DNA of 56,406 nucleotides from an uncultured Candidatus Saccharibacteria bacterium (lineage in GTDB: Bacteria; Patescibacteriota; Minisyncoccia; Phycocordibacterales; UBA9973), in contig CAZYBS010000004.1 in NCBI GenBank assembly GCA_964645245.1, forward strand, positions 1 to 56,406. The letters are read 5' to 3'. This document shows, piece after piece, positions 1-48,844 of this stretch. Position numbers and translations under genes: made by a program. Position 1 is the stretch's first letter, and every line of letters starts with the position of its first letter. The notes beneath the pieces were generated by a model. It was not told where the DNA came from. It ran no database searches and saw nothing but the letters and a program-made list of their open reading frames with translations.

Positions 1-50
1 ATTGAAAAATTCACTGGCTTTGGCGGCAAATTCTCGCTCTTTGAATTATG

Positions 51-83
51 AAAAAGAAAAACGGTCAGCTTGTGGGCTGACCG
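51..83 (-). terminator. rho-independent terminator closing GC-rich island A
   Basis: Minus-strand hairpin CGGTCAGC/GCTGACCG (62-69/76-83) followed by a T-run (A-run 51-61 on +). Two more hairpins at 85-100 and 108-123. Confidence 0.6.
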
Positions 84-129
84 ACCAACCGATAGGTTGG
101 ATTTGTGCCTTGCGTTTGCAAGGGCTTGA

Positions 130-408
130 TTAGTTCACAGACTTCGGACGGTCAACCGCTGCCTTTCTCTGACCTCCGGAGAAGATGACTTCCATCGCAC
201 GAAGGTCTTTGATGCCTCGACGATCCGTCTCTGCGATCAACTGCCGAATCGTTTCGAGAAACGGTGTATTCGGCAGATGCGTGATTGTGAACACTTCCGT
301 CTCTTCGCCGGTGAGGAAGACATCTTCCTTCGTCTTGAAGTTCTCTGACCCACCCAGCAGGATGACGTAGTGATTGCCGCGGAACAAGTACACGAGCAGA
401 CTAAGCAT
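130..408 (-). CDS. hypothetical protein, island A gene 2 (~92 aa)
   Basis: ORF track 130..435. The internal ATG at 408 is preceded by AGGAGG and overlaps the stop of the upstream ORF (coupled pair). GC-rich codons; no recognisable motif. Confidence 0.45.
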   Translation of the reverse strand: MLSLLVYLFRGNHYVILLGGSENFKTKEDVFLTGEETEVFTITHLPNTPFLETIRQLIAETDRRGIKDLRAMEVIFSGGQRKAAVDRPKSVN

Positions 409-847
409 TGAGTCCTCCTGATGTTGTCGATTCATGTGGGAACGAATGTTGTAGAAAGAACTCCCACGTAACTCCTGGTGGAGCTAGCACGACACACGCC
501 AGCTTCTTCACGAGTACCGCGTAGCGGATCTCGTAACCATCGCTGCGTACGAACCGCAAGTCCTTCGCTTTGAGGATGACGTATCGAAGAGATTTTCCCG
601 CTGTCTCTTGAAGCTGGATCATTTCCTCGCAATCACCATTCTCCGAACTTACGTTGACCCACACAGCGATGTCGTCTGGCAGAGGATCATCTCGAAAAAT
701 CTGCCTTGTCTCCTCACTGTGCTTATTGAGATGAAGTACTCGCACAGGAGTGACAATCGAGTGCCATCTCGGTCTGATTGCGTACAGACCGGGATAGTCC
801 CGAAGAACACTCATTGCCGCTAGATGTCGATGTCTACGTTTTCTCAT
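401..847 (-). CDS. hypothetical protein, island A gene 1 (148 aa)
   Basis: ORF track. GGAGGG lies 7 nt upstream of the ATG, and the 924-952 promoter is upstream. No recognisable family. Confidence 0.45.
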   Translation of the reverse strand: MRKRRHRHLAAMSVLRDYPGLYAIRPRWHSIVTPVRVLHLNKHSEETRQIFRDDPLPDDIAVWVNVSSENGDCEEMIQLQETAGKSLRYVILKAKDLRFVRSDGYEIRYAVLVKKLACVVLAPPGVTWEFFLQHSFPHESTTSGGLNA

Positions 848-923
848 ACCTGAACCCTCCGGTTCTTTGAGGCCCTCCGGCCATCTGGTAGTTCCTGCAA
901 ACGTGATTGTCGCAGGACAGCAA

Positions 924-5917: not shown

Positions 5918-5966
5918 ATAAAGAAAGATTTTCCGTACATCACACTGTCCCTTTGAGGAGACCAGT

Positions 5967-6386
5967 ATGAAACTGATTTTGCTTGCTCTTTGTCTTTTCG
6001 CAGCTACCACCGCCTATGCCCAAGAGGAACCGATCCCACTGGTTTCGGGGAGTGTGTGGCTCGACCTCTTCATAGGTCCGGACGGCGCAGTAGTCTACCC
6101 ACAATACTCGTTCAAGGTGGACGGGTTGCGGATGGTCGTGACAGGCTACGGGTTCTGGGAGAAGGCTCCTGGTGAACCTGACTTCACCAACCACGTCAAC
6201 ACGTTCAACCTGGCACGGCTTCCGTATTTTTCTTTGCGGACGGAAATCGGCGGCCGGGTACGGAAGTTCACAGTCGACACGGCCGCTGGTTCTGTCAGCG
6301 TGCCACCTGCCGGGTTCTTCCAGGCTGGTCCGCAAGCCAACCTGCACCAGGTGTTTCCGCTCAAAGGGATGGATATTACCTGGTAG
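5967..6386 (+). CDS. secreted beta-rich protein, island B ORF1 (139 aa)
   Basis: Gram-negative-type signal peptide MKLILLALCLFAATTAYAQ. Alternating hydrophobic beta-strand pattern; GC-rich. Confidence 0.5.
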   Translation: MKLILLALCLFAATTAYAQEEPIPLVSGSVWLDLFIGPDGAVVYPQYSFKVDGLRMVVTGYGFWEKAPGEPDFTNHVNTFNLARLPYFSLRTEIGGRVRKFTVDTAAGSVSVPPAGFFQAGPQANLHQVFPLKGMDITW

Positions 6387-6643
6387 TGTCTTACTTGCCA
6401 GCCCTGGCTGGCATCCGCCCGAATAACACGATTCTTGCGGGCGGTACGCGGAAATTTGGACTTGGTTCCACTCTGGCGGTCTCCGGGGAAGGCTACCGTC
6501 GCTTCTTTCCGGATGGGGCAGACTACAGTGAGTTCTGGATGTTTGTCGGGGTAGAGCGCATGAAGCACTTCACGCCGGCGGTCTTCATTCTCACTGACGG
6601 AGAGGCGAAGAGCTTCGCCATCGGGGGCAGGTTTTCTCCGTGA
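6386..6643 (+). CDS. island B ORF2 (85 aa): coupled ORF or frameshifted C-terminal half of ORF1
   Basis: The GTG start overlaps the TAG stop of ORF1 (TAGTG). The beta-strand pattern continues and ends in ..FAIGGRFSP. Confidence 0.35.
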   Translation: MSYLPALAGIRPNNTILAGGTRKFGLGSTLAVSGEGYRRFFPDGADYSEFWMFVGVERMKHFTPAVFILTDGEAKSFAIGGRFSP

Positions 6644-6652
6644 AACAAAATC

Positions 6653-6685
6653 GGGCAATCGTTCTCTTAGTGGGAGCGATTGCCC
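6653..6685 (+). terminator. hairpin terminator of island B
   Basis: GGGCAATCG/CGATTGCCC 9-bp stem, 10 nt after the stop. Weak T-tract. Confidence 0.5.
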
Positions 6686-13651: not shown

Positions 13652-14047
13652 TTATTTCTTTTTCTCTATATCTTCGTCAATATGGTCTAGCTTTTTCTCT
13701 AGTCTATGCAAAGTATTTTGCAGATTTTTAAGCTGGGTTTCTTCTGTTTCAACTTCTTCTTCCACTTTTTCAGCCATTTTTTCTTCACCAATCAGGCCGG
13801 AAATAATAAGCCGGCTCCCAATAAAAGCGGAGACAAATACCCCTGTTATCAGAAGGAGAATAGAGCCGATAATTATTGAAACAATACTACTGGTATTTAT
13901 GTCATCCGCCAGATGCCATACTCCGCGCCAAAATAGTATGACCCCAATCCCTCCTACAAAACCATAAAGAATAGGATAGTGGCTTAATTTACCTCTTACT
14001 TTATCTTCTAATTTATCAAAAAATTGTATAATCTTTTTTAGCTTCAT
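13652..14047 (-). CDS. membrane protein with C-terminal coiled coil (unknown)
   Basis: Two TM helices, then an acidic coiled coil. The start codon abuts the 71-nt repeat. Confidence 0.5.
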   Translation of the reverse strand: MKLKKIIQFFDKLEDKVRGKLSHYPILYGFVGGIGVILFWRGVWHLADDINTSSIVSIIIGSILLLITGVFVSAFIGSRLIISGLIGEEKMAEKVEEEVETEETQLKNLQNTLHRLEKKLDHIDEDIEKKK

Positions 14048-14118
14048 CCCAGTACTAAAATTTTAAATAATAATGTTTATCTTTATGTCTCGTAATCAAA
14101 AATTTAGTACGGGACAAG
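14048..14118 (-). repeat. 71-nt hairpin (TIR-bearing) element, copy 1, forming the 5' leader of 13652..14047
   Basis: The reverse complement matches 18518-18588 at 64/71 positions. Arms CCCGTACTAAATTTT / AAAATTTTAGTACTGGG. Confidence 0.75.
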
Positions 14119-14155
14119 TATTGCTTAATCATACACTAAGAGTAGAATTATTGCG

Positions 14156-18501: not shown

Positions 18502-18517
18502 GCCCCAAGCCTATACA

Positions 18518-18588
18518 CCTGTCCCGTACTAAATTTTTGATTACGGGGCATAACGATAAAGATTAATAATTAAAATTTTAGTACTGGG
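18518..18588 (+). repeat. 71-nt hairpin element, copy 2, forming the 5' leader of nusG
   Basis: Matches the reverse complement of 14048-14118 at 64/71 positions. Ends exactly at the nusG ATG. Confidence 0.75.
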
Positions 18589-19131
18589 ATGAAACAAGAA
18601 GAACAAGGAGTTAGAAACTGGTATGCCATCCATACTTATGCCGGATATGAAAATGTCGTGTTGCGCAACTTAAAACAGCGCATTGATTCTCTCGGAATGC
18701 ATGAAAAAATTTTCAATGTTATCGTTCCGATTGAAAAGAAAATAAAAATAAAAGCTGGCAAAAGAGTTGAGGTGGAAGAAAAAATTTATCCGGGCTATGT
18801 CTTGGTTGATATGATTGTAACCGATGATTCCTGGTATGTGGTGCGCAATACTCCGCGAGTTACCGGCTTTGTCGGCGCGGGAGTCAACCCGGTGCCCCTC
18901 AAAAAAGAAGAAGTGGACTATCTTTTCAAAAAAATGGATGCCGGCGCGACTAAACACAATATTGACATAGTTATCGGTGAGAGTATTTTGATTATTGATG
19001 GTCCGTTCAAAGACCTGGAAGGGAAAATCAATTCCGTTGACCAGGAACGTGGTAAAGTAAAAGTGCTTGTTTCGATGTTCGGTCGTGAGACTCCGGTAGA
19101 ACTAGACTTCTTGCAAGTGAAAAAGATTTAA
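18589..19131 (+). CDS. nusG: transcription termination/antitermination factor NusG
   Basis: WYAIHTYAGYENVV NGN start and C-terminal KOW (GPFKDLEGKI..KVKVLVSMFGRETPVELDF). Confidence 0.9.
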   Translation: MKQEEQGVRNWYAIHTYAGYENVVLRNLKQRIDSLGMHEKIFNVIVPIEKKIKIKAGKRVEVEEKIYPGYVLVDMIVTDDSWYVVRNTPRVTGFVGAGVNPVPLKKEEVDYLFKKMDAGATKHNIDIVIGESILIIDGPFKDLEGKINSVDQERGKVKVLVSMFGRETPVELDFLQVKKI

Positions 19132-27025: not shown

Positions 27026-27115
27026 TTATTTTATTAACCCTGCCTTAAGGAGAGTGGCGTAAACGCCTCTTTTTTTCATGGTGCGCATGCCTTGGACGGA
27101 GACTTCTATATTGAT
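27026..27115 (-). pseudogene. duplicated 3' fragment of rpmB (last 29 codons)
   Basis: Minus strand reads INIEVSVQGMRTMKKRGVYATLLKAGLIK*, compared with the intact L28 C-terminus INIEVSVQGLRTMKKRGAYATLLKAGLIKA*. Confidence 0.7.
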
Positions 27116-28542: not shown

Positions 28543-28791
28543 CTACGCTTTTATCAAACCAGCCTTGAGGAGCGTGGCATAGGCGCCGCGCTTTTTCATG
28601 GTGCGCAGGCCTTGGACGGAGACTTCTATATTGATGTATTTATTGATTTCAGGAATAAAAATTCTCTTCTTTTGAAGATTTAAGTATTTTCGGACTTTGC
28701 CGGTAGGGTTAAATTTAGTGGCACGAGTCCTGTTGGAATACCCGCCCCCGACAATTGAACCCTTTTTTGTTATCGCGCATATTTTCGCCAT
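28543..28791 (-). CDS. rpmB: 50S ribosomal protein L28
   Basis: MAKICAITKKGSIVGGGYSNRTRATKF..N(L)QKKRIF typical L28. Confidence 0.9.
   Translation of the reverse strand: MAKICAITKKGSIVGGGYSNRTRATKFNPTGKVRKYLNLQKKRIFIPEINKYINIEVSVQGLRTMKKRGAYATLLKAGLIKA
28551..28635. repeat. direct repeat copy 2 (inside rpmB 3' end), paired with 27031-27115
   Basis: About 85 bp aligned. The distal 45 bp are identical except for one base. Confidence 0.75.
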
Positions 28792-29444: not shown

Positions 29445-29497
29445 GATTATAAATAGTATATTATTTCCATAGTCCTATGGGGCTTTTTTGTTTGTTT

Positions 29498-29914
29498 ATG
29501 CCAACAATTAACCAGTTAATTAAAAAAAATAGGGTCAAAGTCCATGCCAAGCACAAGACTGTAGCCTTGGCCAAGGGCTTCAATGTCTTAAAAAATAGAC
29601 CGGTCTTTTTCCCGGCACCTTTTAAGCGTGGTGTTTGTACGAAAGTTTCCACCACGACTCCCAAGAAGCCAAACTCGGCATTGCGAAAGATTGCCAGAGT
29701 CCGCTTGACCAATGGTATGGAAGTTACGGCTTATATTCCGGGCGAAGGCCATAATTTACAAGAACACTCCGTGGTTATGCTGCGCGGAGGACGCGTGAAA
29801 GACTTGATTGGAGTCAGATATCATATTGTGCGCGGAGTTTTGGATACGCAAGGAGTTGAAAAACGCAAACAAGGCAGGTCTTTATATGGCAACAAGAAGC
29901 CGAAGAGTAAGTAA
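29498..29914 (+). CDS. rpsL: 30S ribosomal protein S12
   Basis: [10 protein letters not shown] start, [10 protein letters not shown] motif. ATG at 29498 within ORF 29477..29914. Confidence 0.95.
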
Positions 29915-29986: not shown

Positions 29987-30457
29987 ATGAGACGCAAAGT
30001 TAAAAATAGAAATATAATTTCCCCTGATTTCGTCTACAATTCCCAGAAATTAGAGAAATTTATCAATTACATCATGTGGTCTGGGAAAAAAGAAACTGCC
30101 AGAAAAGTAATGTATCAGGCTTTTGATGTGATCAAAGAAAAAACAGGCAACCCGAATCCATTGGAAATTTTTGATTTGGCGCTTAGAAATGCTGGTCCCT
30201 CAACCGAAGTGCGTTCCAAGCGCATCGGGGGCGCGAACTATCAGGTACCGATAGAAGTGCGAGCTGAACGCCGTCTGGCTTTAGCTATGCGCTGGATTCG
30301 CGACGCGGCTCGCAGTGGCAAAGGGCGTCCGATGCATTTGAAACTGGCCGATGAGTTGATTTCCGCTTCCAGGAACGAAGGTTCGGCGATTAAAAAGAAA
30401 GAAGACACGCACAAGATGGCCGAGGCCAATAAAGCTTTTGCCCATTTTGCATGGTGA
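29987..30457 (+). CDS. rpsG: 30S ribosomal protein S7
   Basis: Typical S7 length and motifs (GKKETARKV, VRSKRIGGANYQVP, ..HFAW end). Confidence 0.95.
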   Translation: MRRKVKNRNIISPDFVYNSQKLEKFINYIMWSGKKETARKVMYQAFDVIKEKTGNPNPLEIFDLALRNAGPSTEVRSKRIGGANYQVPIEVRAERRLALAMRWIRDAARSGKGRPMHLKLADELISASRNEGSAIKKKEDTHKMAEANKAFAHFAW

Positions 30458-30506
30458 TAGAAAATAAGGAGCAAGGCGACTATATTTTCATCATCCTGCT
30501 CAAATT
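30457..30506. repeat. direct repeat copy 1 flanking island D (starts at the rpsG stop)
   Basis: ATAGAAAATAAGGAGC..GGCGACTATATTTTCAT.. recurs at 31483-31533 (roughly 40 of 50 positions). Confidence 0.7.
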
Positions 30507-30561
30507 TTGCCGCTGCTTACTCTAAATGTTTTAAATAAACACTTAACTCAATATTGAAAAT

Positions 30562-30616
30562 AAAATCTGCGGGGCCGAATAGGCCGTCCCTCATGGGCGA
30601 AGCGGATTTTTCTGTT
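30562..30616 (+). terminator. branched stem-loop plus T-tract downstream of rpsG
   Basis: Outer stem AAAATCTGC/GCGGATTTT encloses hairpins GGCC-GAATA-GGCC and CCC-TCAT-GGG, followed by TTTTTCTGTTT. Confidence 0.45.
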
Positions 30617-30642
30617 TATATCCCGTAAAATTTAGGCTAGAT

Positions 30643-30709
30643 AATAAGAAAGTCCCGGCAACCACGAAGGCCGCCGGGACTGAGATGCGCGAGTGCTAGG
30701 CCACTCGCG
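30643..30709 (-). terminator. tandem hairpin terminator of island D gene
   Basis: CGCGAGTG/CACTCGCG (30688-30709) and AGTCCCGGC/GCCGGGACT (30651-30681), followed on the minus strand by TTCTTATT. Confidence 0.55.
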
Positions 30710-30750
30710 AGTTGATGATTTTTTCCGTTTACCTAGAACGTCTTTTGCCG

Positions 30751-31287
30751 TTATTGTTTAACGGCTATTTCAAGCAACCTGAGATCGTTCGGCACGTCGA
30801 AGATATTGAACGCACTGGCGATGTTCTGAGCCCGTCGTACCGCTCTGTACGCCTTTCGGTCACCACGACGTGCGTTTCGCATAGCAGAGCGCTTGTCTCT
30901 CAGACCAAAGAGGGAGTTTACCTCCCAGCGCTCCACTTCCTCAACGCGTCCTCTACATGCGTTAAGCGAGCCAACACGCCGCTTGAGTTCTCGCTTGATT
31001 TCCTTCTCAAGCATCGGACGCTCACTCCAATCGGGAGGTATGTGATACGGTGGGTGCACTCTGTAGATGATACAGAAGATAATGCACCACCATGTCCACA
31101 CCAGACCCACGCCGATTCCGAGGATCGTTCCGCCCGCACTTGCCGTGAAGACGAGTGCCACCACGATGGTGATTAACCCGCCTTGAGTGGCTTGGACAGG
31201 CGCGTGGGCTTGCATATACATCAGTGTATAAACGAGCACCACGACTGAAGGGGCGCCAACCAACAGGTAGCCTAATGCTCTTCTCAC
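30751..31287 (-). CDS. hypothetical membrane protein, island D (178 aa)
   Basis: GTG start 5 nt after AAGGAGG. Two to three N-terminal TM helices, then an Arg/Glu-rich cytoplasmic tail. GC-rich. Confidence 0.5.
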   Translation of the reverse strand: MRRALGYLLVGAPSVVVLVYTLMYMQAHAPVQATQGGLITIVVALVFTASAGGTILGIGVGLVWTWWCIIFCIIYRVHPPYHIPPDWSERPMLEKEIKRELKRRVGSLNACRGRVEEVERWEVNSLFGLRDKRSAMRNARRGDRKAYRAVRRAQNIASAFNIFDVPNDLRLLEIAVKQ

Positions 31288-31379
31288 GATTTCCTCCTTC
31301 TGCGACCCTGTCTAAACTAGCTCCTTGCCAGTCAGACCTAAGCCTCTTTGGCTCAGTGAATCGCTCGAGACACTCGATC

Positions 31380-31408
31380 ATCATAGCACTTATTCCTATA
31401 AAAGTCAA
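31380..31408 (-). promoter_or_regulatory. sigma70-like promoter driving island D
   Basis: Minus strand reads TTGACT-17 nt-TATGAT. The GC-rich sequence begins immediately after the -10 box. Confidence 0.6.
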
Positions 31409-31425
31409 GGGCTAAAATAAAACTA

Positions 31426-31480
31426 TTGCAAAAAATAGCTTTATGCTATATAGTATTCCTAGCGCAACAGGCGCTTTTTA
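31426..31480 (+). promoter_or_regulatory. TTGCAA-17-TATAGT promoter followed at the predicted start by hairpin+T-run
   Basis: Promoter 31426-31454. AGCGC-AACAG-GCGCT hairpin 31461-31475, then TTTTT. Confidence 0.45.
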
Positions 31481-31482
31481 TT

Positions 31483-31533
31483 ATAGAAAATAAGGAGCTT
31501 TGGCGACTATATTTTCATAACCCTGTTAAATTA
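31483..31533. repeat. direct repeat copy 2 flanking island D
   Basis: See 30457-30506. Lies just upstream of the GIY-YIG gene. Confidence 0.7.
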
Positions 31534-31542
31534 TTTTAAATT

Positions 31543-31806
31543 ATGGGAAAGTACTACTATGTATATGTCTTACTGTCTGATAAAGATGGAAACTTCTATA
31601 CAGGTTTTACAGAAGATTTAAAATCAAGATTTGAGCGACACAGTAACAAGTTCGTAAAATCTACAAGAGATAGAGGTAAGCTTACCCTTGTATATTCTGA
31701 AGCTTGTTTAAGTAAAAAGGACGCCCTACACCGTGAGAAGTATTTGAAAACCTATCACGGCAAGCAATTTTTACGAAATAGGCTCAAATCTTATTTAACA
31801 GGGTAG
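31543..31806 (+). CDS. GIY-YIG nuclease family protein
   Basis: YYVYVLLSDKDGNFYTGFTEDLKSRFERH motif; 87 aa. Confidence 0.85.
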   Translation: MGKYYYVYVLLSDKDGNFYTGFTEDLKSRFERHSNKFVKSTRDRGKLTLVYSEACLSKKDALHREKYLKTYHGKQFLRNRLKSYLTG

Positions 31807-31841
31807 TGATTTTCTAATCGCTATGCTCAAGAAAATCAACT

Positions 31842-33989
31842 ATGGAACGCGATTACCCTTTAGAAAAAGTCAGGAATATTGGAATTATTGCGCACATTGA
31901 TGCGGGCAAGACGACGACGACCGAGCGGGTGCTTTTTTATACTGGCGTGTCGCATAAAATTGGTGAAGTGCATGAAGGGGATACGGTTACCGACTGGATG
32001 GAGCAAGAGCGGGAACGCGGGATTACAATTACCTCCGCCGCAGTCACCTGTTTCTGGACACCGACATATGCATTAACGGATAAGACAAAAAAACACCGCT
32101 TTAATATTATTGATACTCCAGGGCACATTGATTTCACCGTAGAAGTGAAACGTTCTCTGCGTGTTCTGGACGGCGCGGTAGTTGTTTTTGACGGTGTGGC
32201 TGGAGTAGAACCCCAGTCGGAGACAAATTGGCGTTACGCCGATGAAGCCAAAGTACCTCGTATTTGTTTTATAAATAAGTTGGACCGAACGGGGGCTTCT
32301 TTTGAGCATTCCTATGCGTCTATTTTAGACAGACTAAGTAAAAAAGCCGTATGCGTGCAAATTCCTATCGGCTTGGAAGAAAAGTTTGAAGGAGTTATTG
32401 ATTTGCTCCGCATGAAGGCTTATTACTTTGAAGGAGAAATGGGCAATCTGGTCATTGAAAAAGAAATTCCAGAAATTTTAAAAACCGAGGCGGAAAAATA
32501 TCATAGCGAATTAGTGGAAAAAATAGTTGAGACTGACGAAGTTATGATGACAGAATATTTAGAAGGCATGATTCCCAGTTTTGATACGCTGAAGAAAACT
32601 CTCCGCAAGGCGGTCATTGGGAATACTATTTTCCCAGTCTTCACCGGAAGCGCGTTAAAGAATAAAGGTGTTCAGCTAGTGCTAGACGCCGTGGTAGATT
32701 ATTTGCCGTCACCACTGGATATACCGCCAATTTCCGGCATTGACCCAAATACGGAGGAAATGATTAGCAGAAACGCATCCGACGAAGAGCCTTTCTCGGC
32801 GCTCGCTTTCAAAGTCGCGACCGACCCTTTCGTCGGCCAGCTTATTTTTTTCCGCGTTTATTCTGGAACCCTTTCGGCTGGCAGCTATGTCTACAATCCG
32901 CGCACGCAGAATAAAGAGCGCATCGGAAGAATTCTACGCATGCATGCCAACGACCGAGAAGAAGTAAAGAAAGTTTTTGCCGGAGAGATAGCGGCCGCGG
33001 TGGGGCTCAAGGACACTATCACCTCGGATACTCTTTGTGAGGAAAATAATCCGATTATTCTGGACAGAATTGTTTTCCCAGAGCCGGTCATATCGCTCCG
33101 CATTGAGCCCAAAACCAAAGCCGACCAGGAAAAAATGGGGATGGCTCTAAACCGCCTGGCGCAGGAGGACCCCACTTTTAAAGTTAGTACCGACCAGGAA
33201 ACGGGCGAGACGATTATCGCTGGTATGGGAGAATTGCATTTAGAAATTATTGTGGACCGCATGAAACGCGAATTTACCGTGGAGGCAAATGTCGGCAAAC
33301 CGCAAGTGGCATATCGTGAAACGATTACTAGCACCGCCGAGGCCGAAGGAAAATATATCAAGCAGTCAGGCGGACGCGGAAACTATGGACATGTCAGGAT
33401 CAAAGTCAAACCAATGGCCGCCCTTACCAAAGAAGAGCTGGAAGACTTGCCAAAAAATACTAAGAGGTCCCCGGGTTTTGAATTTATAAACACTATCAAG
33501 GGAGGGGTGATTCCGCAGGAATATATCATACCTTGCGAAAAAGGTTTCAAAGAAGGCTTGGAGCGTGGAATTTTGGCTGGATTCAAAATGGTTAATGTTT
33601 CAGTAGAGCTTTGGGATGGAAGCTATCATGAAGTTGACTCAAATGAAATGGCTTTCAAGATTGCTTCATCGATGGCCGTGCAAGACGCCTGCCGCCGGGC
33701 CAACCCGGTAATCTTGGAACCAATGATGAAAGTGGAAGTCGTCACCCCGGATAAATTCATGGGAGATGTCACCGGGAACCTTTCTTCTAAACGAGCCTTG
33801 ATCGAAGGAATGGAAGACCGCGGAATAAATAAAGTCATTCGCGCTCTGGTGCCTCTCTCGGAAATGTTCGGTTACATGACCGGACTGCGTTCCATGACCG
33901 AAGGCCGCGCCTCCTTCACGATGGAATTCTTTAGGTATGATATGGTCCCACAGAATGTAGCCGAGACGATAATCGCGGCCAGGAAATAA
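31842..33989 (+). CDS. fusA: elongation factor G
   Basis: [33 protein letters not shown] motifs; 715 aa. Confidence 0.97.
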
Positions 33990-38459: not shown

Positions 38460-39017
38460 ATGGTTAAATTTATTCTTGGGAAAAAACAAAACATGACTCA
38501 GTATTTTTCCGAGGACGGAAAAGTAATTCCAGTTACTTTATTGCAGGCCGGTCCGGTAACGGTGGGTCAAATTTTTCAGAAAGAAAAAGATGGTTATGAT
38601 GCTGTCCAAGTGGACTTTGCCTCACAGAAAAAAGAATTTAGATTAAAACCCTTGGATAAAATTGATGTTAAAAAAGGAGATGTAATTGATGTCTCAATTT
38701 TTGCTCCAGGCGACCGCCTTCAAGTTTCAAGTGTGTCCAAAGGTAAAGGCTTTCAGGGTGTGGTAAAACGTCATGGTTTTCACGGTGGTCCGCGTACCCA
38801 TGGTCAAAAGCATTCAGAAAGAGAAGCCGGAAGTATCGGCGGAGGTCTGCGAACTCACGTTCCGAAAGGCATGAGAATGGCGGGTAGAATGGGTGGCGAC
38901 AGGATTACCCAAAAGAATTTAACAGTTGTTTCTGTTGATAAAGAAAATAACATCATGCTGGTGAAAGGAGCAATAGCCGGCAAGCGTGGAAGTTTGGTGG
39001 AGATTATTAGTAGATAG
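38460..39017 (+). CDS. rplC: 50S ribosomal protein L3
   Basis: GKKQNMTQYF..SKGKGFQGVVKRHGF. Confidence 0.92.
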   Translation: MVKFILGKKQNMTQYFSEDGKVIPVTLLQAGPVTVGQIFQKEKDGYDAVQVDFASQKKEFRLKPLDKIDVKKGDVIDVSIFAPGDRLQVSSVSKGKGFQGVVKRHGFHGGPRTHGQKHSEREAGSIGGGLRTHVPKGMRMAGRMGGDRITQKNLTVVSVDKENNIMLVKGAIAGKRGSLVEIISR

Positions 39018-39054
39018 AGTTTTAGACTCTAGATAGAGGCTAAACCTCTATCTG
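39012..39054. repeat. 43-bp element (AGATAGAGG-CTAAA-CCTCTATCT hairpin plus flank), copy 1
   Basis: Perfect reverse complement of 48802-48844. Confidence 0.85.
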
Positions 39055-40858: not shown

Positions 40859-40865
40859 AAAGTAT

Positions 40866-40938
40866 AACCCCTCCCTAACCCTCCCCTTATCAGGGGAGGG
40901 TTTTACGTTTCCCCCTGACAAGGGGGATTTGGGGGGTT
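40866..40938 (+). repeat. CCCCTCC/GGAGGGG three-way-junction repeat element (includes the rplB terminator)
   Basis: Outer AACCCC/GGGGTT. Inner hairpins CCCTCCCC-TTATCA-GGGGAGGG+TTTT (40879-40904) and CCCCCT-GACA-AGGGGG. Confidence 0.6.
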
Positions 40939-41022
40939 GTATTATTCTACAGATGTTATAGACTTTAAATCGAAGTTCACCCGTTAGTTTCGTTCACGTA
41001 CGTTGTTGGCGGAGGTAGCTGT

Positions 41023-41205
41023 ATGAAAGATGGCAAAAGGCGTCGCGAGGCTCGTTTGGTAGCCAGCAAGGAAGTTGAGGCACGCAGGGCGGTCCAACAG
41101 GATGGCACTTCATCGGCCCCGCCGCCGCGCTATTTGCCGGGGACGCCACGACCCTGGCAGCCAAGGCAGGTTCGCCACGGGGACCAAGGGCGTCGGTGGC
41201 GCTAG
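41023..41205 (+). CDS. hypothetical Arg-rich small protein, island E (60 aa)
   Basis: GGAGG 7 nt upstream of the ATG. About 63% GC. Arg-rich (MKDGKRRREARL..). Followed by GAGAC/GTCTC and GAGGG/CCCTC hairpins. Confidence 0.3.
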   Translation: MKDGKRRREARLVASKEVEARRAVQQDGTSSAPPPRYLPGTPRPWQPRQVRHGDQGRRWR

Positions 41206-41295
41206 TTCCCCCACATTTTTCGTGAGACTCGCCATGGGTCTCGAGGGACGTCGTTCATTCGGCGCCCCTCTTCTTATTTATACTCAATATTTACA

Positions 41296-41325
41296 TTTAC
41301 TTTATTTTGCATAAAATGCTATAAT
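41296..41325 (+). promoter_or_regulatory. extended -10 promoter (TGCTATAAT) for the island E RNA
   Basis: TTTACT -35-like hexamer. TGCTATAAT at 41317-41325. Confidence 0.5.
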
Positions 41326-41330
41326 ACAAA

Positions 41331-41627
41331 TGGATCTGTTCTCAACCGGTTTCTCTCAGCCGGTCAGGTCCAGGAAGGGGATGTACGGCGTTGACGGATC
41401 ATCGACGGGAGCCTCCTAGGGTTGTGTGCTCCTCGGGGCGCACAGAAGAGGAACAAAGGGTTTGGGACACGGTGGCTGCCGTGATCCCTGACAGTCTCAA
41501 GGGGCCAGGATGGTCCCCGAAGGGAGTGTTCGAGCAGATGGTAGTGGCGGCTCAGAAGAAGTAGGGTCGCCAAGTTTGAGGGTGACTACACCCCTGGGGT
41601 CCAAGAACATCGGACCCCAGTTTTTTT
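41331..41627 (+). ncRNA. candidate ~295-nt structured GC-rich RNA of unknown class
   Basis: Own promoter. At least 5 local hairpins (41345-64, 41424-44, 41464-88, 41501-18, 41565-87). Strong intrinsic terminator CTGGGGTCC/GGACCCCAG + T7 (41594-41627). No convincing ORF. Confidence 0.45.
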
Positions 41628-48801: not shown

Positions 48802-48844
48802 CAGATAGAGGTTTAGCCTCTATCTAGAGTCTAAAACTCTATCT
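48802..48844. repeat. 43-bp element, copy 2 (inverted relative to 39012-39054)
   Basis: Perfect reverse complement of copy 1. Hairpin AGATAGAGG-TTTAG-CCTCTATCT. Confidence 0.85.

What the first reader, a model, noticed from the sequence alone, without database searches (positions are those of the whole stretch)
30457..31533. Island D: direct-repeat-flanked cassette inserted between rpsG and fusA
A ~50-bp sequence starting at the rpsG stop (ATAGAAAATAAGGAGC..GGCGACTATATTTTCAT.., 30457-30506) recurs at 31483-31533, with roughly 40 of 50 positions identical. The two copies bracket ~980 bp. That interval holds a minus-strand unit: promoter TTGACT-17-TATGAT, a ~95-nt leader, AAGGAGG-GTG, a 178-aa protein with 2-3 TM helices and an Arg/Glu-rich tail, and tandem GC hairpins. 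Duplication of the sequence immediately 3' of a ribosomal protein gene is the footprint expected from site-specific or duplicative insertion. No integrase or transposase is present.
Basis: seen in the sequence. Interest (0 to 1): 0.72.

Follow-up and report, generated by a model that had tools for sequence, protein, structure and literature searches.

The report
Nuclease-cassette hairpin repeats flanking foreign cargo
The two ~55-base repeats are real, but they are end hairpins of a small mobile GIY-YIG nuclease cassette in front of fusA, with one extra solo copy at the rpsG stop, and not a duplication footprint left by insertion of the GC-rich island, which is separate strain-specific cargo in a recombination hotspot.

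Summary
The repeat is confirmed: 30457-30510 and 31483-31537 align with a score of 69, against a maximum of 42 in 2000 controls.

- **What the repeat is.** It is the conserved left-end hairpin motif of a ~360-bp cassette encoding an 87-aa single-domain GIY-YIG nuclease (31483-31841). The same motif precedes homologous genes upstream of fusA, rpsS, rplJ and rpsL in other CPR genomes.
- **How many copies.** A covariance model built only from those other loci finds exactly three copies in the window: copy B (left end), an inverted right end abutting the fusA ATG, and copy A (a solo end abutting the rpsG stop).
- **What lies between the copies.** The interval is composite. It holds GC-rich cargo with one possible ORFan membrane gene, plus the native fusA promoter and hairpin that relatives share.
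- **The site is a hotspot.** The nearest relatives have rpsG, 9 nt, then fusA. Others carry unrelated cargo there.
- **The copies are not a fresh duplication.** Copy A is closer to another genome's cassette than to copy B.
- **Closest known system.** The Ssn/SRM system, which pairs ssDNA-specific GIY-YIG nucleases with flanking hairpin repeats.

The target-duplication reading is not supported.

The parts
29987..30457 (+). rpsG (ribosomal protein S7). Its TGA stop ends at 30457 and overlaps the first base of copy A.
   Evidence: Pfam Ribosomal_S7 E 2e-57; 84-93% identical to Nomurabacteria/Paceibacterota S7.
30457..30510 (+). Copy A, a solo left-end motif of the GIY-YIG cassette. It comprises hairpin H1 (stem GAAAATA 30460-30466 / TATTTTC 30483-30489, loop AAGGAGC..GGCGAC) and a decayed IR-L (ATCCTGCTCAAAT, 30493-30505). 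No nuclease ORF follows it.
   Evidence: CM R1 52.6 bits, E 3e-10; alignment; no GIY-YIG remnant downstream; no partner IR-R above chance.
30511..30650 (.). AT-rich spacer, then a GC-rich hairpin cluster (about 30561-30612). It has no homology in any fetched locus.
30651..30709 (-). Two GC hairpins downstream of ORF178 on the minus strand. The first, 30681-30651, has 13 bp and a TTCTTATTAT tail and looks like a terminator. The second is 30709-30688.
   Evidence: fold z = -4.1.
30751..31287 (-). ORF178, a candidate ORFan membrane protein with three N-terminal hydrophobic helices and a charged helical tail. GC is 0.59/0.44/0.59 by codon position.
   Evidence: No homolog in 5.8e9 or 1.84e9 proteins. 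No Pfam, PHROG, PADLOC or NCBIfam family. An alternative gene call exists in the second assembly.
31293..31408 (-). Expression signals of ORF178: promoter-like TTGACT-17-TATGAT (31408-31380, TG-extended), a leader of about 86 nt, and AAGGAGG (31299-31293).
31426..31482 (+). Native fusA promoter TTGCAA-17-TATAGT (31426-31454), 5' hairpin AGCGC-aacag-GCGCT (31461-31475) and T-run. It is shared with relatives that carry other cargo or none.
   Evidence: homologous segments directly upstream of fusA in L002, L003, L006, L081, L094 and L183.
31483..31537 (+). Copy B, the left end of the GIY-YIG cassette. It comprises hairpin H1 (GAAAATA 31486-31492 / TATTTTC 31510-31516) and IR-L ACCCTGTTAAAT (31520-31531).
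   Evidence: CM R1 75.1 bits; the same leader occurs in about 25 cassettes elsewhere.
31543..31806 (+). 87-aa single-domain GIY-YIG nuclease gene, Ssn-like / UPF0213-like. Y6/Y8, Y19, R29 and E65 are present.
   Evidence: Pfam PF01541 E 5e-13; PDB 1zg2 E 3e-9; more than 1696 homologs, best 89-91% identity.
31793..31841 (-). Right end of the cassette, an inverted copy of the end motif. It comprises IR-R ATTTAACAGGGT (31793-31804, overlapping the last codons and the stop) and hairpin H3 (TGATTTTCT 31807-31815 / AGAAAATCA 31830-31838). It ends 3 nt before the fusA ATG.
   Evidence: CM R1 hit on the minus strand, 32.1 bits, E 4e-5; 12-nt perfect inverted repeat I9; compensatory changes across loci.
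31842..33989 (+). fusA (EF-G), the host gene whose 5' UTR carries the cassette.

Best explanation
**What the repeats are.** They are copies of the ~55-nt terminal motif of a compact GIY-YIG nuclease cassette. The motif is an A/T-stemmed hairpin whose loop carries TAGTC...CTCCTTA on one strand, followed by a 12-nt arm, ACCCTGTTAAAT.

**The cassette.** It spans 31483-31841 and consists of a left end, an 87-aa nuclease ORF and an inverted right end. It sits in the fusA 5' UTR, between the native promoter-hairpin and the ATG. The same arrangement occurs in relatives L094 and L081. The same cassette family occupies the equivalent position before rpsS, rplJ and rpsL in other CPR genomes. Copy B is the cassette's own left end.

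**Copy A.** It is a solo left end abutting the rpsG stop codon. It most likely came from a different (L094-type) cassette copy, or from a recombination between two cassette-bearing alleles. It was not created when the island arrived.

**Island D.** About 30511-31425 is separate, strain-specific GC-rich cargo with its own promoter, Shine-Dalgarno sequence and terminators. It occupies the rpsG-fusA gap, which is a cargo-exchange hotspot in this lineage.

**Inferred mechanism (not shown).**
- By analogy with Ssn nucleases, the GIY-YIG protein binds the hairpin motif as single-stranded DNA on one strand and cuts next to it.
- This would account for the cassette's mobility and persistence.
- It could also affect recombination of incoming transforming DNA around the SRM-gene-SRM arrangement seen here.
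- Cargo turnover itself would occur by natural transformation, with crossovers in rpsG and in fusA or the cassette.
For: 1. The same leader precedes homologous GIY-YIG genes (70-91% identity) at fusA (L081, L094), rpsS (L083-85, L095, L116), rplJ (L086-93, L096-97) and rpsL (L101).
2. CM R1, built from 15 non-window leaders, finds exactly three elements in the window: copy B, copy A and the inverted right end. In 99 other loci, every plus-strand hit lies directly upstream of a GIY-YIG ORF, and minus-strand hits lie at its 3' end.
3. Hairpin and IR pairing are kept by compensatory changes:
   - GAAATTA/TAATTTC and GAAAGCC/GGCTTTC in the hairpin.
   - TCCTG/CAGGA, CCCCG/CGGGG and CCCGA/TCGGG in the IR.
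   - GTGAGAT/ATCTCAC in the IR.
4. Filled and empty sites can be compared directly. L003 reads hairpin-ATTTTTT-ATG, whereas the window and L094 read hairpin-TTTTATT-[cassette]-ATG.
5. The site is a hotspot:
   - L179-182 (EF-G 94% identical, same synteny) have a 9-nt rpsG-fusA spacer.
   - L183-187, L094, L081, L002, L003 and L009 each have different cargo.
6. Copy A has 4 differences from the L094 leader and 7 from copy B.
7. Solo or ORF-less ends exist elsewhere: L007, right before fusA, and L130.
8. Published precedent: Ssn genes are single-domain GIY-YIG proteins of about 94 aa flanked on both sides by 20-50-nt hairpin repeats. Extra copies cluster round membrane-protein genes and modulate transformation (PMC11893778).
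Against: - The published SRM degenerate consensus gives no hit in the window.
- Assignment to cd10448, or homology to N. meningitidis SsnA, could not be tested. The best solved relatives are UPF0213 proteins.
- No biochemical or read-level evidence for cleavage or mobility was available.
- Only one window-like case of an extra left end upstream of cargo was seen among about 25 cassettes, so the origin of copy A is inferred from 49 aligned bases.
- Copy A does not sit in the usual cassette context (after a GC hairpin plus T-run, before an ATG).
- The hairpins could act at the RNA level instead.
Confidence: 0.75

Rival explanations
1. Island D inserted by a site-specific or duplicative mechanism that duplicated about 50 bp of the sequence immediately 3' of rpsG, giving attL/attR sites or a long target-site duplication.
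For: There are two direct copies about 1 kb apart bracketing GC-rich foreign-looking DNA. The region is absent from the nearest relatives.
Against: - The repeated sequence is part of the GIY-YIG cassette and occurs at unrelated loci.
- Empty sites in relatives lack it.
- The bracketed interval includes the native fusA promoter and hairpin.
- The copies are not each other's closest relatives.
- A third, inverted copy exists.
- No recombinase is present.
Confidence: 0.05
2. Composite mobile unit. The whole 1385-nt insert (30457-31841) moved as one piece into a compact rpsG-fusA spacer. Copy A would have served as an alternative left end and the normal right end as the other terminus, so that the cassette carried the cargo and a promoter with it.
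For: - The insert is bounded exactly by a left-end-type motif at the rpsG stop and a right-end motif 3 nt before the fusA ATG.
- The nearest relatives have only 7-10 nt between these two points.
- The ancestral spacer TAGAAA(A)TAT resembles the first bases of the end motif.
Against: - The internal fusA promoter-hairpin is homologous to that of relatives with other cargo at the same place. This fits in-situ history better.
- No second example of a cargo-carrying cassette was found among about 25 cassettes.
- Copy A's IR-L arm (ATCCTG) does not match the right end's IR-R (CAGGGT).
Confidence: 0.12
3. The hairpins are cis-acting RNA elements, for example stabilisers or processing sites, or translational control of the nuclease and the downstream gene. 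On this view copy A serves as a 3' stabiliser of the rpsG mRNA and has no DNA-level role.
For: - All elements lie in transcribed UTRs on the sense strand.
- H3 ends at the host gene's ATG.
- The 12-bp IR would enclose the ORF in an RNA stem.
- Copy A's stem is extended by pairing of GGUGAU (the rpsG end) with AUCAUC.
Against: - There is no Rfam match.
- The predicted RNA energy is weak (consensus -1.96 kcal/mol).
- The filled/empty polymorphism and the inverted-terminal architecture point to a DNA element.
- Characterised Ssn enzymes bind ssDNA, not RNA.
- This reading is not exclusive of the main explanation.
Confidence: 0.06
4. Assembly chimera: the GC-rich segment was mis-joined into a CPR contig through the repeated sequence.
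For: There is a sharp GC shift (55% against 40%) and repeats lie at both borders.
Against: - Two independent assemblies (NCBI VMFV01000001.1 and ENA ERZ27284378 k139_396193) are identical over 8.4 kb across the region.
- The island carries AT-rich host-type promoter and terminator signals.
- Several similar islands lie in the same contig, and in another contig of the same sample.
Confidence: 0.02

Closest known systems
Ssn nucleases with NTS/SRM hairpin repeats (Chenal et al. 2025, Nat Commun, PMC11893778)
   Same: - The protein is a single-domain GIY-YIG of about 90 aa, with Tyr/Tyr/Glu at nearly the same positions (Y6, Y17, E64 in SsnA; Y6/Y8, Y19, E65 here).
- The gene is flanked 5' and 3' by inverted, hairpin-forming, oriented repeats of 20-50 nt.
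- Extra repeat copies occur away from the gene, next to a membrane-protein gene (an SRM-gene-SRM layout).
- The motif grammar is similar: GTC, then a short palindrome, then TC(C). For example, L083 has TAGTC-ATTGC-AA-GCAAT-TCC, against the NTS CGTC-ATTCCCGC..GCGGGAAT-CYRG.
- The host is naturally competent and symbiotic.
   Different: - The published SRM consensus does not match.
- The hairpin here has an outer A/T stem.
- A further 12-bp (plus a second helix) inverted repeat encloses the ORF itself.
- Only three motif copies occur in 56 kb, not hundreds.
- The cassette sits precisely between a 5'-UTR hairpin and the start codon of translation genes, and shows presence/absence polymorphism.
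- cd10448 membership and ssDNA cleavage are untested.
Minimal mobile elements (MMEs) of Neisseria: variable gene cassettes between conserved genes, exchanged by transformation (from my own knowledge: Saunders and Snyder 2002; Snyder et al. 2007)
   Same: The conserved flanking genes (rpsG, fusA) hold different, unrelated cargo in different close relatives, or none. No dedicated recombinase is present. Repeats lie at the borders.
   Different: The site lies inside the str ribosomal operon. A dedicated internal promoter restores fusA expression. The organism is a CPR bacterium.
IS200/IS605 and REP/RAYT systems (hairpin-end elements acting on ssDNA)
   Same: - The ends are subterminal hairpins, and there is no target-site duplication.
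- A tiny single-ORF element.
- Solo and ORF-less derivatives exist (L007, L101, L130).
- The right end abuts a fixed point of the target.
   Different: The enzyme is a GIY-YIG nuclease, not an HUH/Y1 transposase. No ligation activity is known for it. The copy number is very low.
Free-standing GIY-YIG homing endonuclease genes (phage Seg/Mob, I-TevI type)
   Same: The GIY-YIG catalytic domain. Insertion between or inside conserved genes at the same position in different genomes. A patchy distribution among close relatives.
   Different: At 87 aa the protein has no DNA-binding domain or linker. The ends are structured inverted repeats, which homing endonuclease genes lack.

Membership tests
Ssn/SRM system (cd10448 GIY-YIG ssDNA nucleases) | Single-domain GIY-YIG protein of about 90-100 aa with catalytic Tyr, Tyr, Arg and Glu | tested here: met
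   87 aa; PF01541 covers residues 4-74. YVY, FYTG, R29 and E65 are read from the sequence and from the alignment to 1zg2.
Ssn/SRM system (cd10448 GIY-YIG ssDNA nucleases) | Gene flanked on both sides by hairpin-forming repeats in inverted orientation | tested here: met
   CM hits at 31478-31531 (+) and 31793-31845 (-). The same holds in about 25 homologous loci.
Ssn/SRM system (cd10448 GIY-YIG ssDNA nucleases) | Additional copies of the motif elsewhere in the genome | tested here: inconclusive
   One extra copy (copy A) in 56 kb. Orphans occur in L007 and L130. The rest of the 219-kb contig was not searched.
Ssn/SRM system (cd10448 GIY-YIG ssDNA nucleases) | Match to the published SRM consensus HGTCWYN(0-2)YYVSBRHN(0-5)WNVSBRGN(0-2)RNCYNB | tested here: not met
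   A regular-expression scan of both strands of the window gave 0 hits. Only the general grammar (GTC, palindrome, TCC) is shared.
Ssn/SRM system (cd10448 GIY-YIG ssDNA nucleases) | CDD cd10448 assignment, or blast E < 1e-10 to N. meningitidis SsnA | not testable with these tools
   No CDD and no SsnA sequence were on hand. The best solved relatives are UPF0213 proteins BH0048 and EF2693.
Ssn/SRM system (cd10448 GIY-YIG ssDNA nucleases) | Strand-specific binding and cleavage of the motif as ssDNA only | not testable with these tools
   Biochemistry is required.
Target-site duplication or att sites of an inserted island | The repeat equals the pre-insertion target sequence, present once in empty sites | tested here: not met
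   Empty or compact sites in L001, L005, L012, L008 and L179 have 7-10 nt with no such sequence. The motif belongs to the cassette.
Target-site duplication or att sites of an inserted island | The segment between the repeats is one foreign unit | tested here: not met
   31426-31482 is the native fusA promoter and hairpin shared with relatives.
Target-site duplication or att sites of an inserted island | An integrase or transposase in or beside the unit | tested here: not met
   No Pfam, PHROG or NCBIfam recombinase was found. The only enzyme nearby is the GIY-YIG nuclease.
Hairpin-end insertion sequences (IS200/IS605-like) | HUH/Y1 transposase | tested here: not met
   The ORF is a GIY-YIG protein.
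Hairpin-end insertion sequences (IS200/IS605-like) | Structured ends and filled-versus-empty sites | tested here: met
Free-standing GIY-YIG homing endonucleases | Catalytic domain plus a separate DNA-binding domain | tested here: not met
   87 aa with the catalytic domain only. TIGR01453 scores 18.5 bits against a cut-off of 56.
MME-type cargo hotspot | The same conserved flanks hold different or no cargo among close relatives | tested here: met

The most novel reading that the evidence does not exclude
The ~360-bp unit (hairpin end, 12-bp inverted repeat, 87-aa GIY-YIG ORF, inverted repeat, hairpin end) may be an autonomous mobile element of a kind not yet described. On this reading, a single-domain Ssn-like ssDNA nuclease serves as its own mobility enzyme. 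The element homes to a fixed point just upstream of the start codons of translation genes in CPR bacteria, and to one codon position of ORF6N and 23S-IVS-protein genes in other phyla. Solo ends such as copy A could then let it capture and move, or protect, neighbouring cargo such as Island D.
Probability: 0.3. Interest if true: 0.75.

Novelty: new variant of a known kind. Interest (0 to 1): 0.5.

Why it matters
Island D itself is ordinary: ORFan cargo in a recombination hotspot. The repeats lead to something more useful.

- **A compact nuclease cassette.** It is Ssn-like, has covarying structured ends, and sits directly in front of fusA, rpsS, rplJ and rpsL in many CPR genomes. Filled and empty sites can be compared cleanly.
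- **A link to an open question.** The 2025 Ssn paper noted that NTS-ssnA-NTS looks like an insertion sequence but did not show mobility. These loci give comparative evidence for mobility and a defined insertion point.
- **Relevance to CPR biology.** They place such a system in naturally competent, host-dependent CPR bacteria. There, control of incoming ssDNA could shape how foreign GC-rich DNA is gained or lost inside essential operons.
- **Possible practical use.** New motif/nuclease pairs are candidate ssDNA-cutting reagents.

Tried and rejected
- **Homology searches for ORF178** found nothing beyond itself. I tried the word-indexed search of 5.8e9 proteins, full phmmer over 1.84e9 representatives, Pfam, PHROGs, PADLOC and NCBIfam, and IMG/VR.
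- **AlphaFold on ORF178**, without an alignment, gave an all-helical model at pLDDT 59.5 and pTM 0.26. This is too poor for a fold search, so none was run.
- **Remnant of a GIY-YIG ORF after copy A.** tblastn with 120 homologs gave only chance-level hits. An in-register 20-mer at offset 1029 did not extend.
- **A partner IR-R for copy A.** Hits were not above chance.
- **Rfam** gave nothing for the region or for the rplB-rpsS island.
- **The published SRM regular expression** gave no hits.
- **Plasmid tblastn** gave only distant GIY-YIG genes. The Sinorhizobium homolog is flanked by its own hairpin repeats, but this does not settle family membership.
- **The paper's supplementary files** are not held.
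- **A leader pattern scan of IMG/VR** gave no match.
- **Strain polymorphism.** The only other assembly carrying the same S7 and GIY-YIG proteins is identical in sequence.
- **A 7-nt target duplication (AGAAAAT) at the cassette ends.** I considered this and rejected it, because the outer hairpin arms differ between the two ends in other cassettes such as L086 and L098.
Full report
**Context**

The window comes from NCBI GCA_007376215.1, contig VMFV01000001.1 (218,975 bp). It is a 40% GC Nomurabacteria/Paceibacterota (CPR) genome. The finding lies in the str operon, which runs rpsL 29477-29914, rpsG 29987-30457 and fusA 31842-33989.

**1.

- Copy A (30457-30510) and copy B (31483-31537) share exact blocks of 16 and 17 nt, separated by a small indel, followed by a decaying tail.
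- The local alignment score is 69. The maximum was 39 in 2000 shuffles and 42 in about 2000 random real pairs from the window.
- Each exact block occurs nowhere else in the 56 kb.
They are the minus-strand TTGACT-17-TATGAT promoter, AAGGAGG 5 nt before a GTG, a 178-codon ORF with three hydrophobic helices and a charged tail, and two GC hairpins, one with a T-rich tail.

**2. What the repeat is**

*The repeat is part of a structured cassette.* Copy B abuts an 87-aa GIY-YIG gene at 31543-31806 (Pfam E 5e-13). A 12-nt perfect inverted repeat, ACCCTGTTAAAT / ATTTAACAGGGT, brackets that ORF (I9).

*The same leader precedes homologs elsewhere.* Homologs of the protein are abundant, with more than 1696 hits. 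I fetched their DNA. The same leader precedes the homologous gene in other CPR contigs. It runs hairpin GAAAATAAGGAGC..GCGACTATATTTTC, then ACCCTGTTAAAT, then about 12 nt, then ATG. A second hairpin follows the gene and ends right at the start codon of a host gene. The host gene differs between loci:
- fusA in L081 and L094
- rpsS in L083-85, L095 and L116
- rplJ in L086-93 and L096-97
- rpsL in L101

*The pairings covary.*
- Hairpin stem: GAAAATA/TATTTTC changes to GAAATTA/TAATTTC, GAAAGCC/GGCTTTC and AAAAATA/TATTTTT.
- 12-nt arms: CCCTG/CAGGG changes to TCCTG/CAGGA (L094), CCCCG/CGGGG (L110) and CCCGA/TCGGG (L130). TTAAAT/ATTTAA changes to TGAGAT/ATCTCA (L137, L142).

*An independent model finds three copies.* I built a covariance model from 15 leaders of other loci, with no window sequence. 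Run over the whole window without filters, it returned exactly three significant hits:

| Element | Coordinates | Strand | Score |
|---|---|---|---|
| Copy B | 31478-31531 | + | 75 bits |
| Copy A | 30452-30505 | + | 52.6 bits, E 3e-10 |
| Inverted copy | 31793-31845 | - | 32 bits, E 4e-5 |

So the nuclease ORF has ~55-nt inverted terminal motifs, and copy A is a third, solo left end. In 99 other loci, every plus-strand hit lies directly upstream of a GIY-YIG ORF, and the minus-strand hits lie at its 3' end. The exceptions are orphans in L007 (immediately before fusA, beside ORF-less mini-cassettes) and L130.

**3. What lies between the copies**

The interval is not one unit.
- Its right part, 31426-31482, is the fusA promoter TTGCAA-17-TATAGT, the hairpin AGCGC..GCGCT and a T-run.
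- Homologous segments sit directly upstream of fusA in L002, L003, L006, L081, L094 and L183.
- L003 shows the empty site (hairpin-ATTTTTT-ATG). The window, L094 and L081 show the filled site (hairpin-TTTTATT-[cassette]-ATG).
- The cassette is therefore 31483-31841 (359 bp), inserted in the fusA 5' UTR.
- The rest of the interval, 30511-31425, has no similarity to any fetched locus.

**4. The rpsG-fusA gap is a hotspot**

| Relative | Content of the gap |
|---|---|
| L179-182 (EF-G 94% identical, same gene order); also L001, L005, L012, L008 | rpsG, 7-10 nt, fusA |
| L183-187 (S7 93% identical) | three minus-strand ORFs, including a NYN-domain gene |
| L094 | two unrelated ORFs, then the GIY-YIG cassette |
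| L081 | two 70-aa ORFs |
| L002, L003 | other genes |
| L009 | a GC-rich small ORF flanked by duplicated terminator hairpins |

This is the pattern of a cargo-exchange hotspot between conserved genes. It resembles the minimal mobile elements of Neisseria; that comparison rests on my own knowledge.

**5. Island D's gene**

- ORF178 has no homolog in two very large searches.
- It matches no family model.
- The predicted fold is helical and of low confidence (pLDDT 59.5).
- Codon-position GC (0.59/0.44/0.59) is compatible with coding, but the opposite strand gives the same pattern.
- A second, sequence-identical assembly has a different frame called there.
- The promoter, strong Shine-Dalgarno sequence, hydrophobic helices and terminator favour ORF178. 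Translation is unproven.

Other GC-rich islands in the window (60-900, 5940-6680, 40860-41625) behave like foreign cargo too. The 5967-6386 ORF is the truncated N-terminus of a 211-240-aa family. Another member of that family again sits in a GC-rich island of a 45% GC contig from the same sample.

**6. Why the target-duplication model fails**

- The motif is absent from empty sites.
- It is intrinsic to the nuclease cassette.
- The bracketed interval contains native DNA.
- A third, inverted copy exists.
- Copy A is nearer to the L094 leader (4 differences, 3 of them in the arm that has lost its partner) than to copy B (7 differences).
- Copy A carries ATCCTG, as L094 does, where it pairs with CAGGAT. 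The window's own right arm is CAGGGT, which matches copy B.

Copy A therefore most likely descends from another cassette copy or allele. The hairpin part of copy A is intact, and its 3' flank (ATCATC) pairs with the rpsG end (GGTGAT). This hints, weakly, that the hairpin is maintained by selection.

**7. Mechanism**

*Shown here:* the architecture, the covariation, the filled/empty sites and the hotspot.

*Inferred:* the nuclease acts on the hairpin motif as single-stranded DNA.

The closest characterised system is Ssn/SRM (PMC11893778):
- The proteins are single-domain GIY-YIG enzymes of about 94 aa.
- Their genes are flanked on both sides by oriented hairpin repeats of 20-50 nt.
- Extra copies cluster near membrane-protein genes.
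- The enzyme binds one strand of the hairpin, cuts a few nt upstream, and lowers integration of transforming DNA that carries the motif.
- The authors note that the architecture resembles an insertion sequence.

In that orientation, the motif here reads A/T arm, TAGTC, a short GC palindrome, CTCCTTA, A/T arm. It lies on the minus strand for copies A and B and on the plus strand for the right end. L083's right end, TAGTC-ATTGC-AA-GCAAT-TCC, is close to the NTS grammar.

Against membership, the published SRM consensus does not match. Neither cd10448 assignment nor activity could be tested. The best solved relatives are UPF0213 proteins. I therefore say it works like Ssn/SRM and do not file it as a proven member.

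**8. Rivals**

- *Composite unit.* The whole 1385 nt would be bounded by copy A and the right end and inserted as one piece into a compact spacer. The boundaries fit exactly. The in-situ homology of the fusA promoter and the mismatch between copy A's arm and the right arm argue against it.
- *RNA-only role of the hairpins.* This cannot be excluded, and it is not exclusive of the main explanation.
- *Chimeric assembly.* This is unlikely, given two identical assemblies.

**9. Verdict**

Island D is ordinary strain-specific cargo. The repeats belong to an Ssn-like GIY-YIG cassette that is a new variant of a recently described kind. Its comparative evidence for mobility, and its fixed position in front of translation genes, are the most interesting results. 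Overall interest is 0.5.

Noticed in passing
window 27029-27115 and 28549-28635: An 87-nt, 86% identical copy of the 3' end of rpmB (L28) lies 1.5 kb upstream of the real gene. The two copies bracket hicB/hicA plus a hydrolase gene. Relative L179 has helicase-hydrolase-rpmB without hicBA. This looks more like a true duplication footprint of an insertion than Island D does.
   Followed up: partly
window 39012-39054 and 48802-48844: A 43-nt perfect inverted repeat, itself made of two hairpins, brackets about 9.7 kb of the S10/spc ribosomal-protein operons (I2).
   Followed up: no
window 40860-41625: A GC-rich island lies between rplB and rpsS. It holds hairpins, a ~60-codon Arg-rich ORF (41024-41206), a promoter-like TTTACA..TATAAT, and about 290 nt of GC-rich sequence ending in a hairpin plus T-run. 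This could be an unknown ncRNA; there is no Rfam hit. In L083-85 and L095 the same gap holds a GIY-YIG cassette, and the rpsS promoter (TTGAC-17-TAGTAT) is shared.
   Followed up: partly
window 5940-6680; L189 6001-6669: The signal-peptide ORF 5967-6386 is the truncated N-terminal 139 aa of a 211-240-aa family of unknown function (52-68% identity). A full-length member also lies in a 59-61% GC island of a 45% GC contig from the same sample. GC-rich island genes seem to circulate among lower-GC genomes of this community.
   Followed up: partly
L103-105, L108, L112, L118, L121, L126, L127, L132; L141, L143, L145, L146: Outside CPR, the same inverted-repeat-bounded GIY-YIG unit interrupts ORF6N-type genes at one and the same codon position (..VNI | IMR..), and also interrupts 23S-rRNA-IVS/four-helix-bundle genes. 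Removing CACCCTG...CAGGGTAA restores the reading frame in L103. This suggests site-specific homing into coding sequences.
   Followed up: partly
L007 6530-6790; L101 1480-1600; L130 1-115: ORF-less mini-versions of the cassette occur, with paired arms enclosing 40-60 nt. In L101 the filler is a GC-rich hairpin. Solo hairpin ends also occur. In L007 they fill the same rpsG-fusA gap.
   Followed up: partly
L009 6490-6841: In another Paceibacterota genome, a GC-rich small ORF between rpsG and fusA is flanked by 26-nt direct repeats of a terminator hairpin, AAAAGAAAAGGCCGTCC.GAA.
   Followed up: no
window 14036-14119 and 18517-18600: An 84-nt inverted repeat, 88% complementary, with arms 4.4 kb apart (I1). 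Its nature was not examined.
   Followed up: no
window 1-900: A GC-rich (about 50%) island at the window start holds two overlapping minus-strand ORFs (130-435, 401-847) with no PHROG or PADLOC family. The Pfam call that included them failed on a bad coordinate, so they were not scanned against Pfam. The island lies next to tRNA-Ser.
   Followed up: partly
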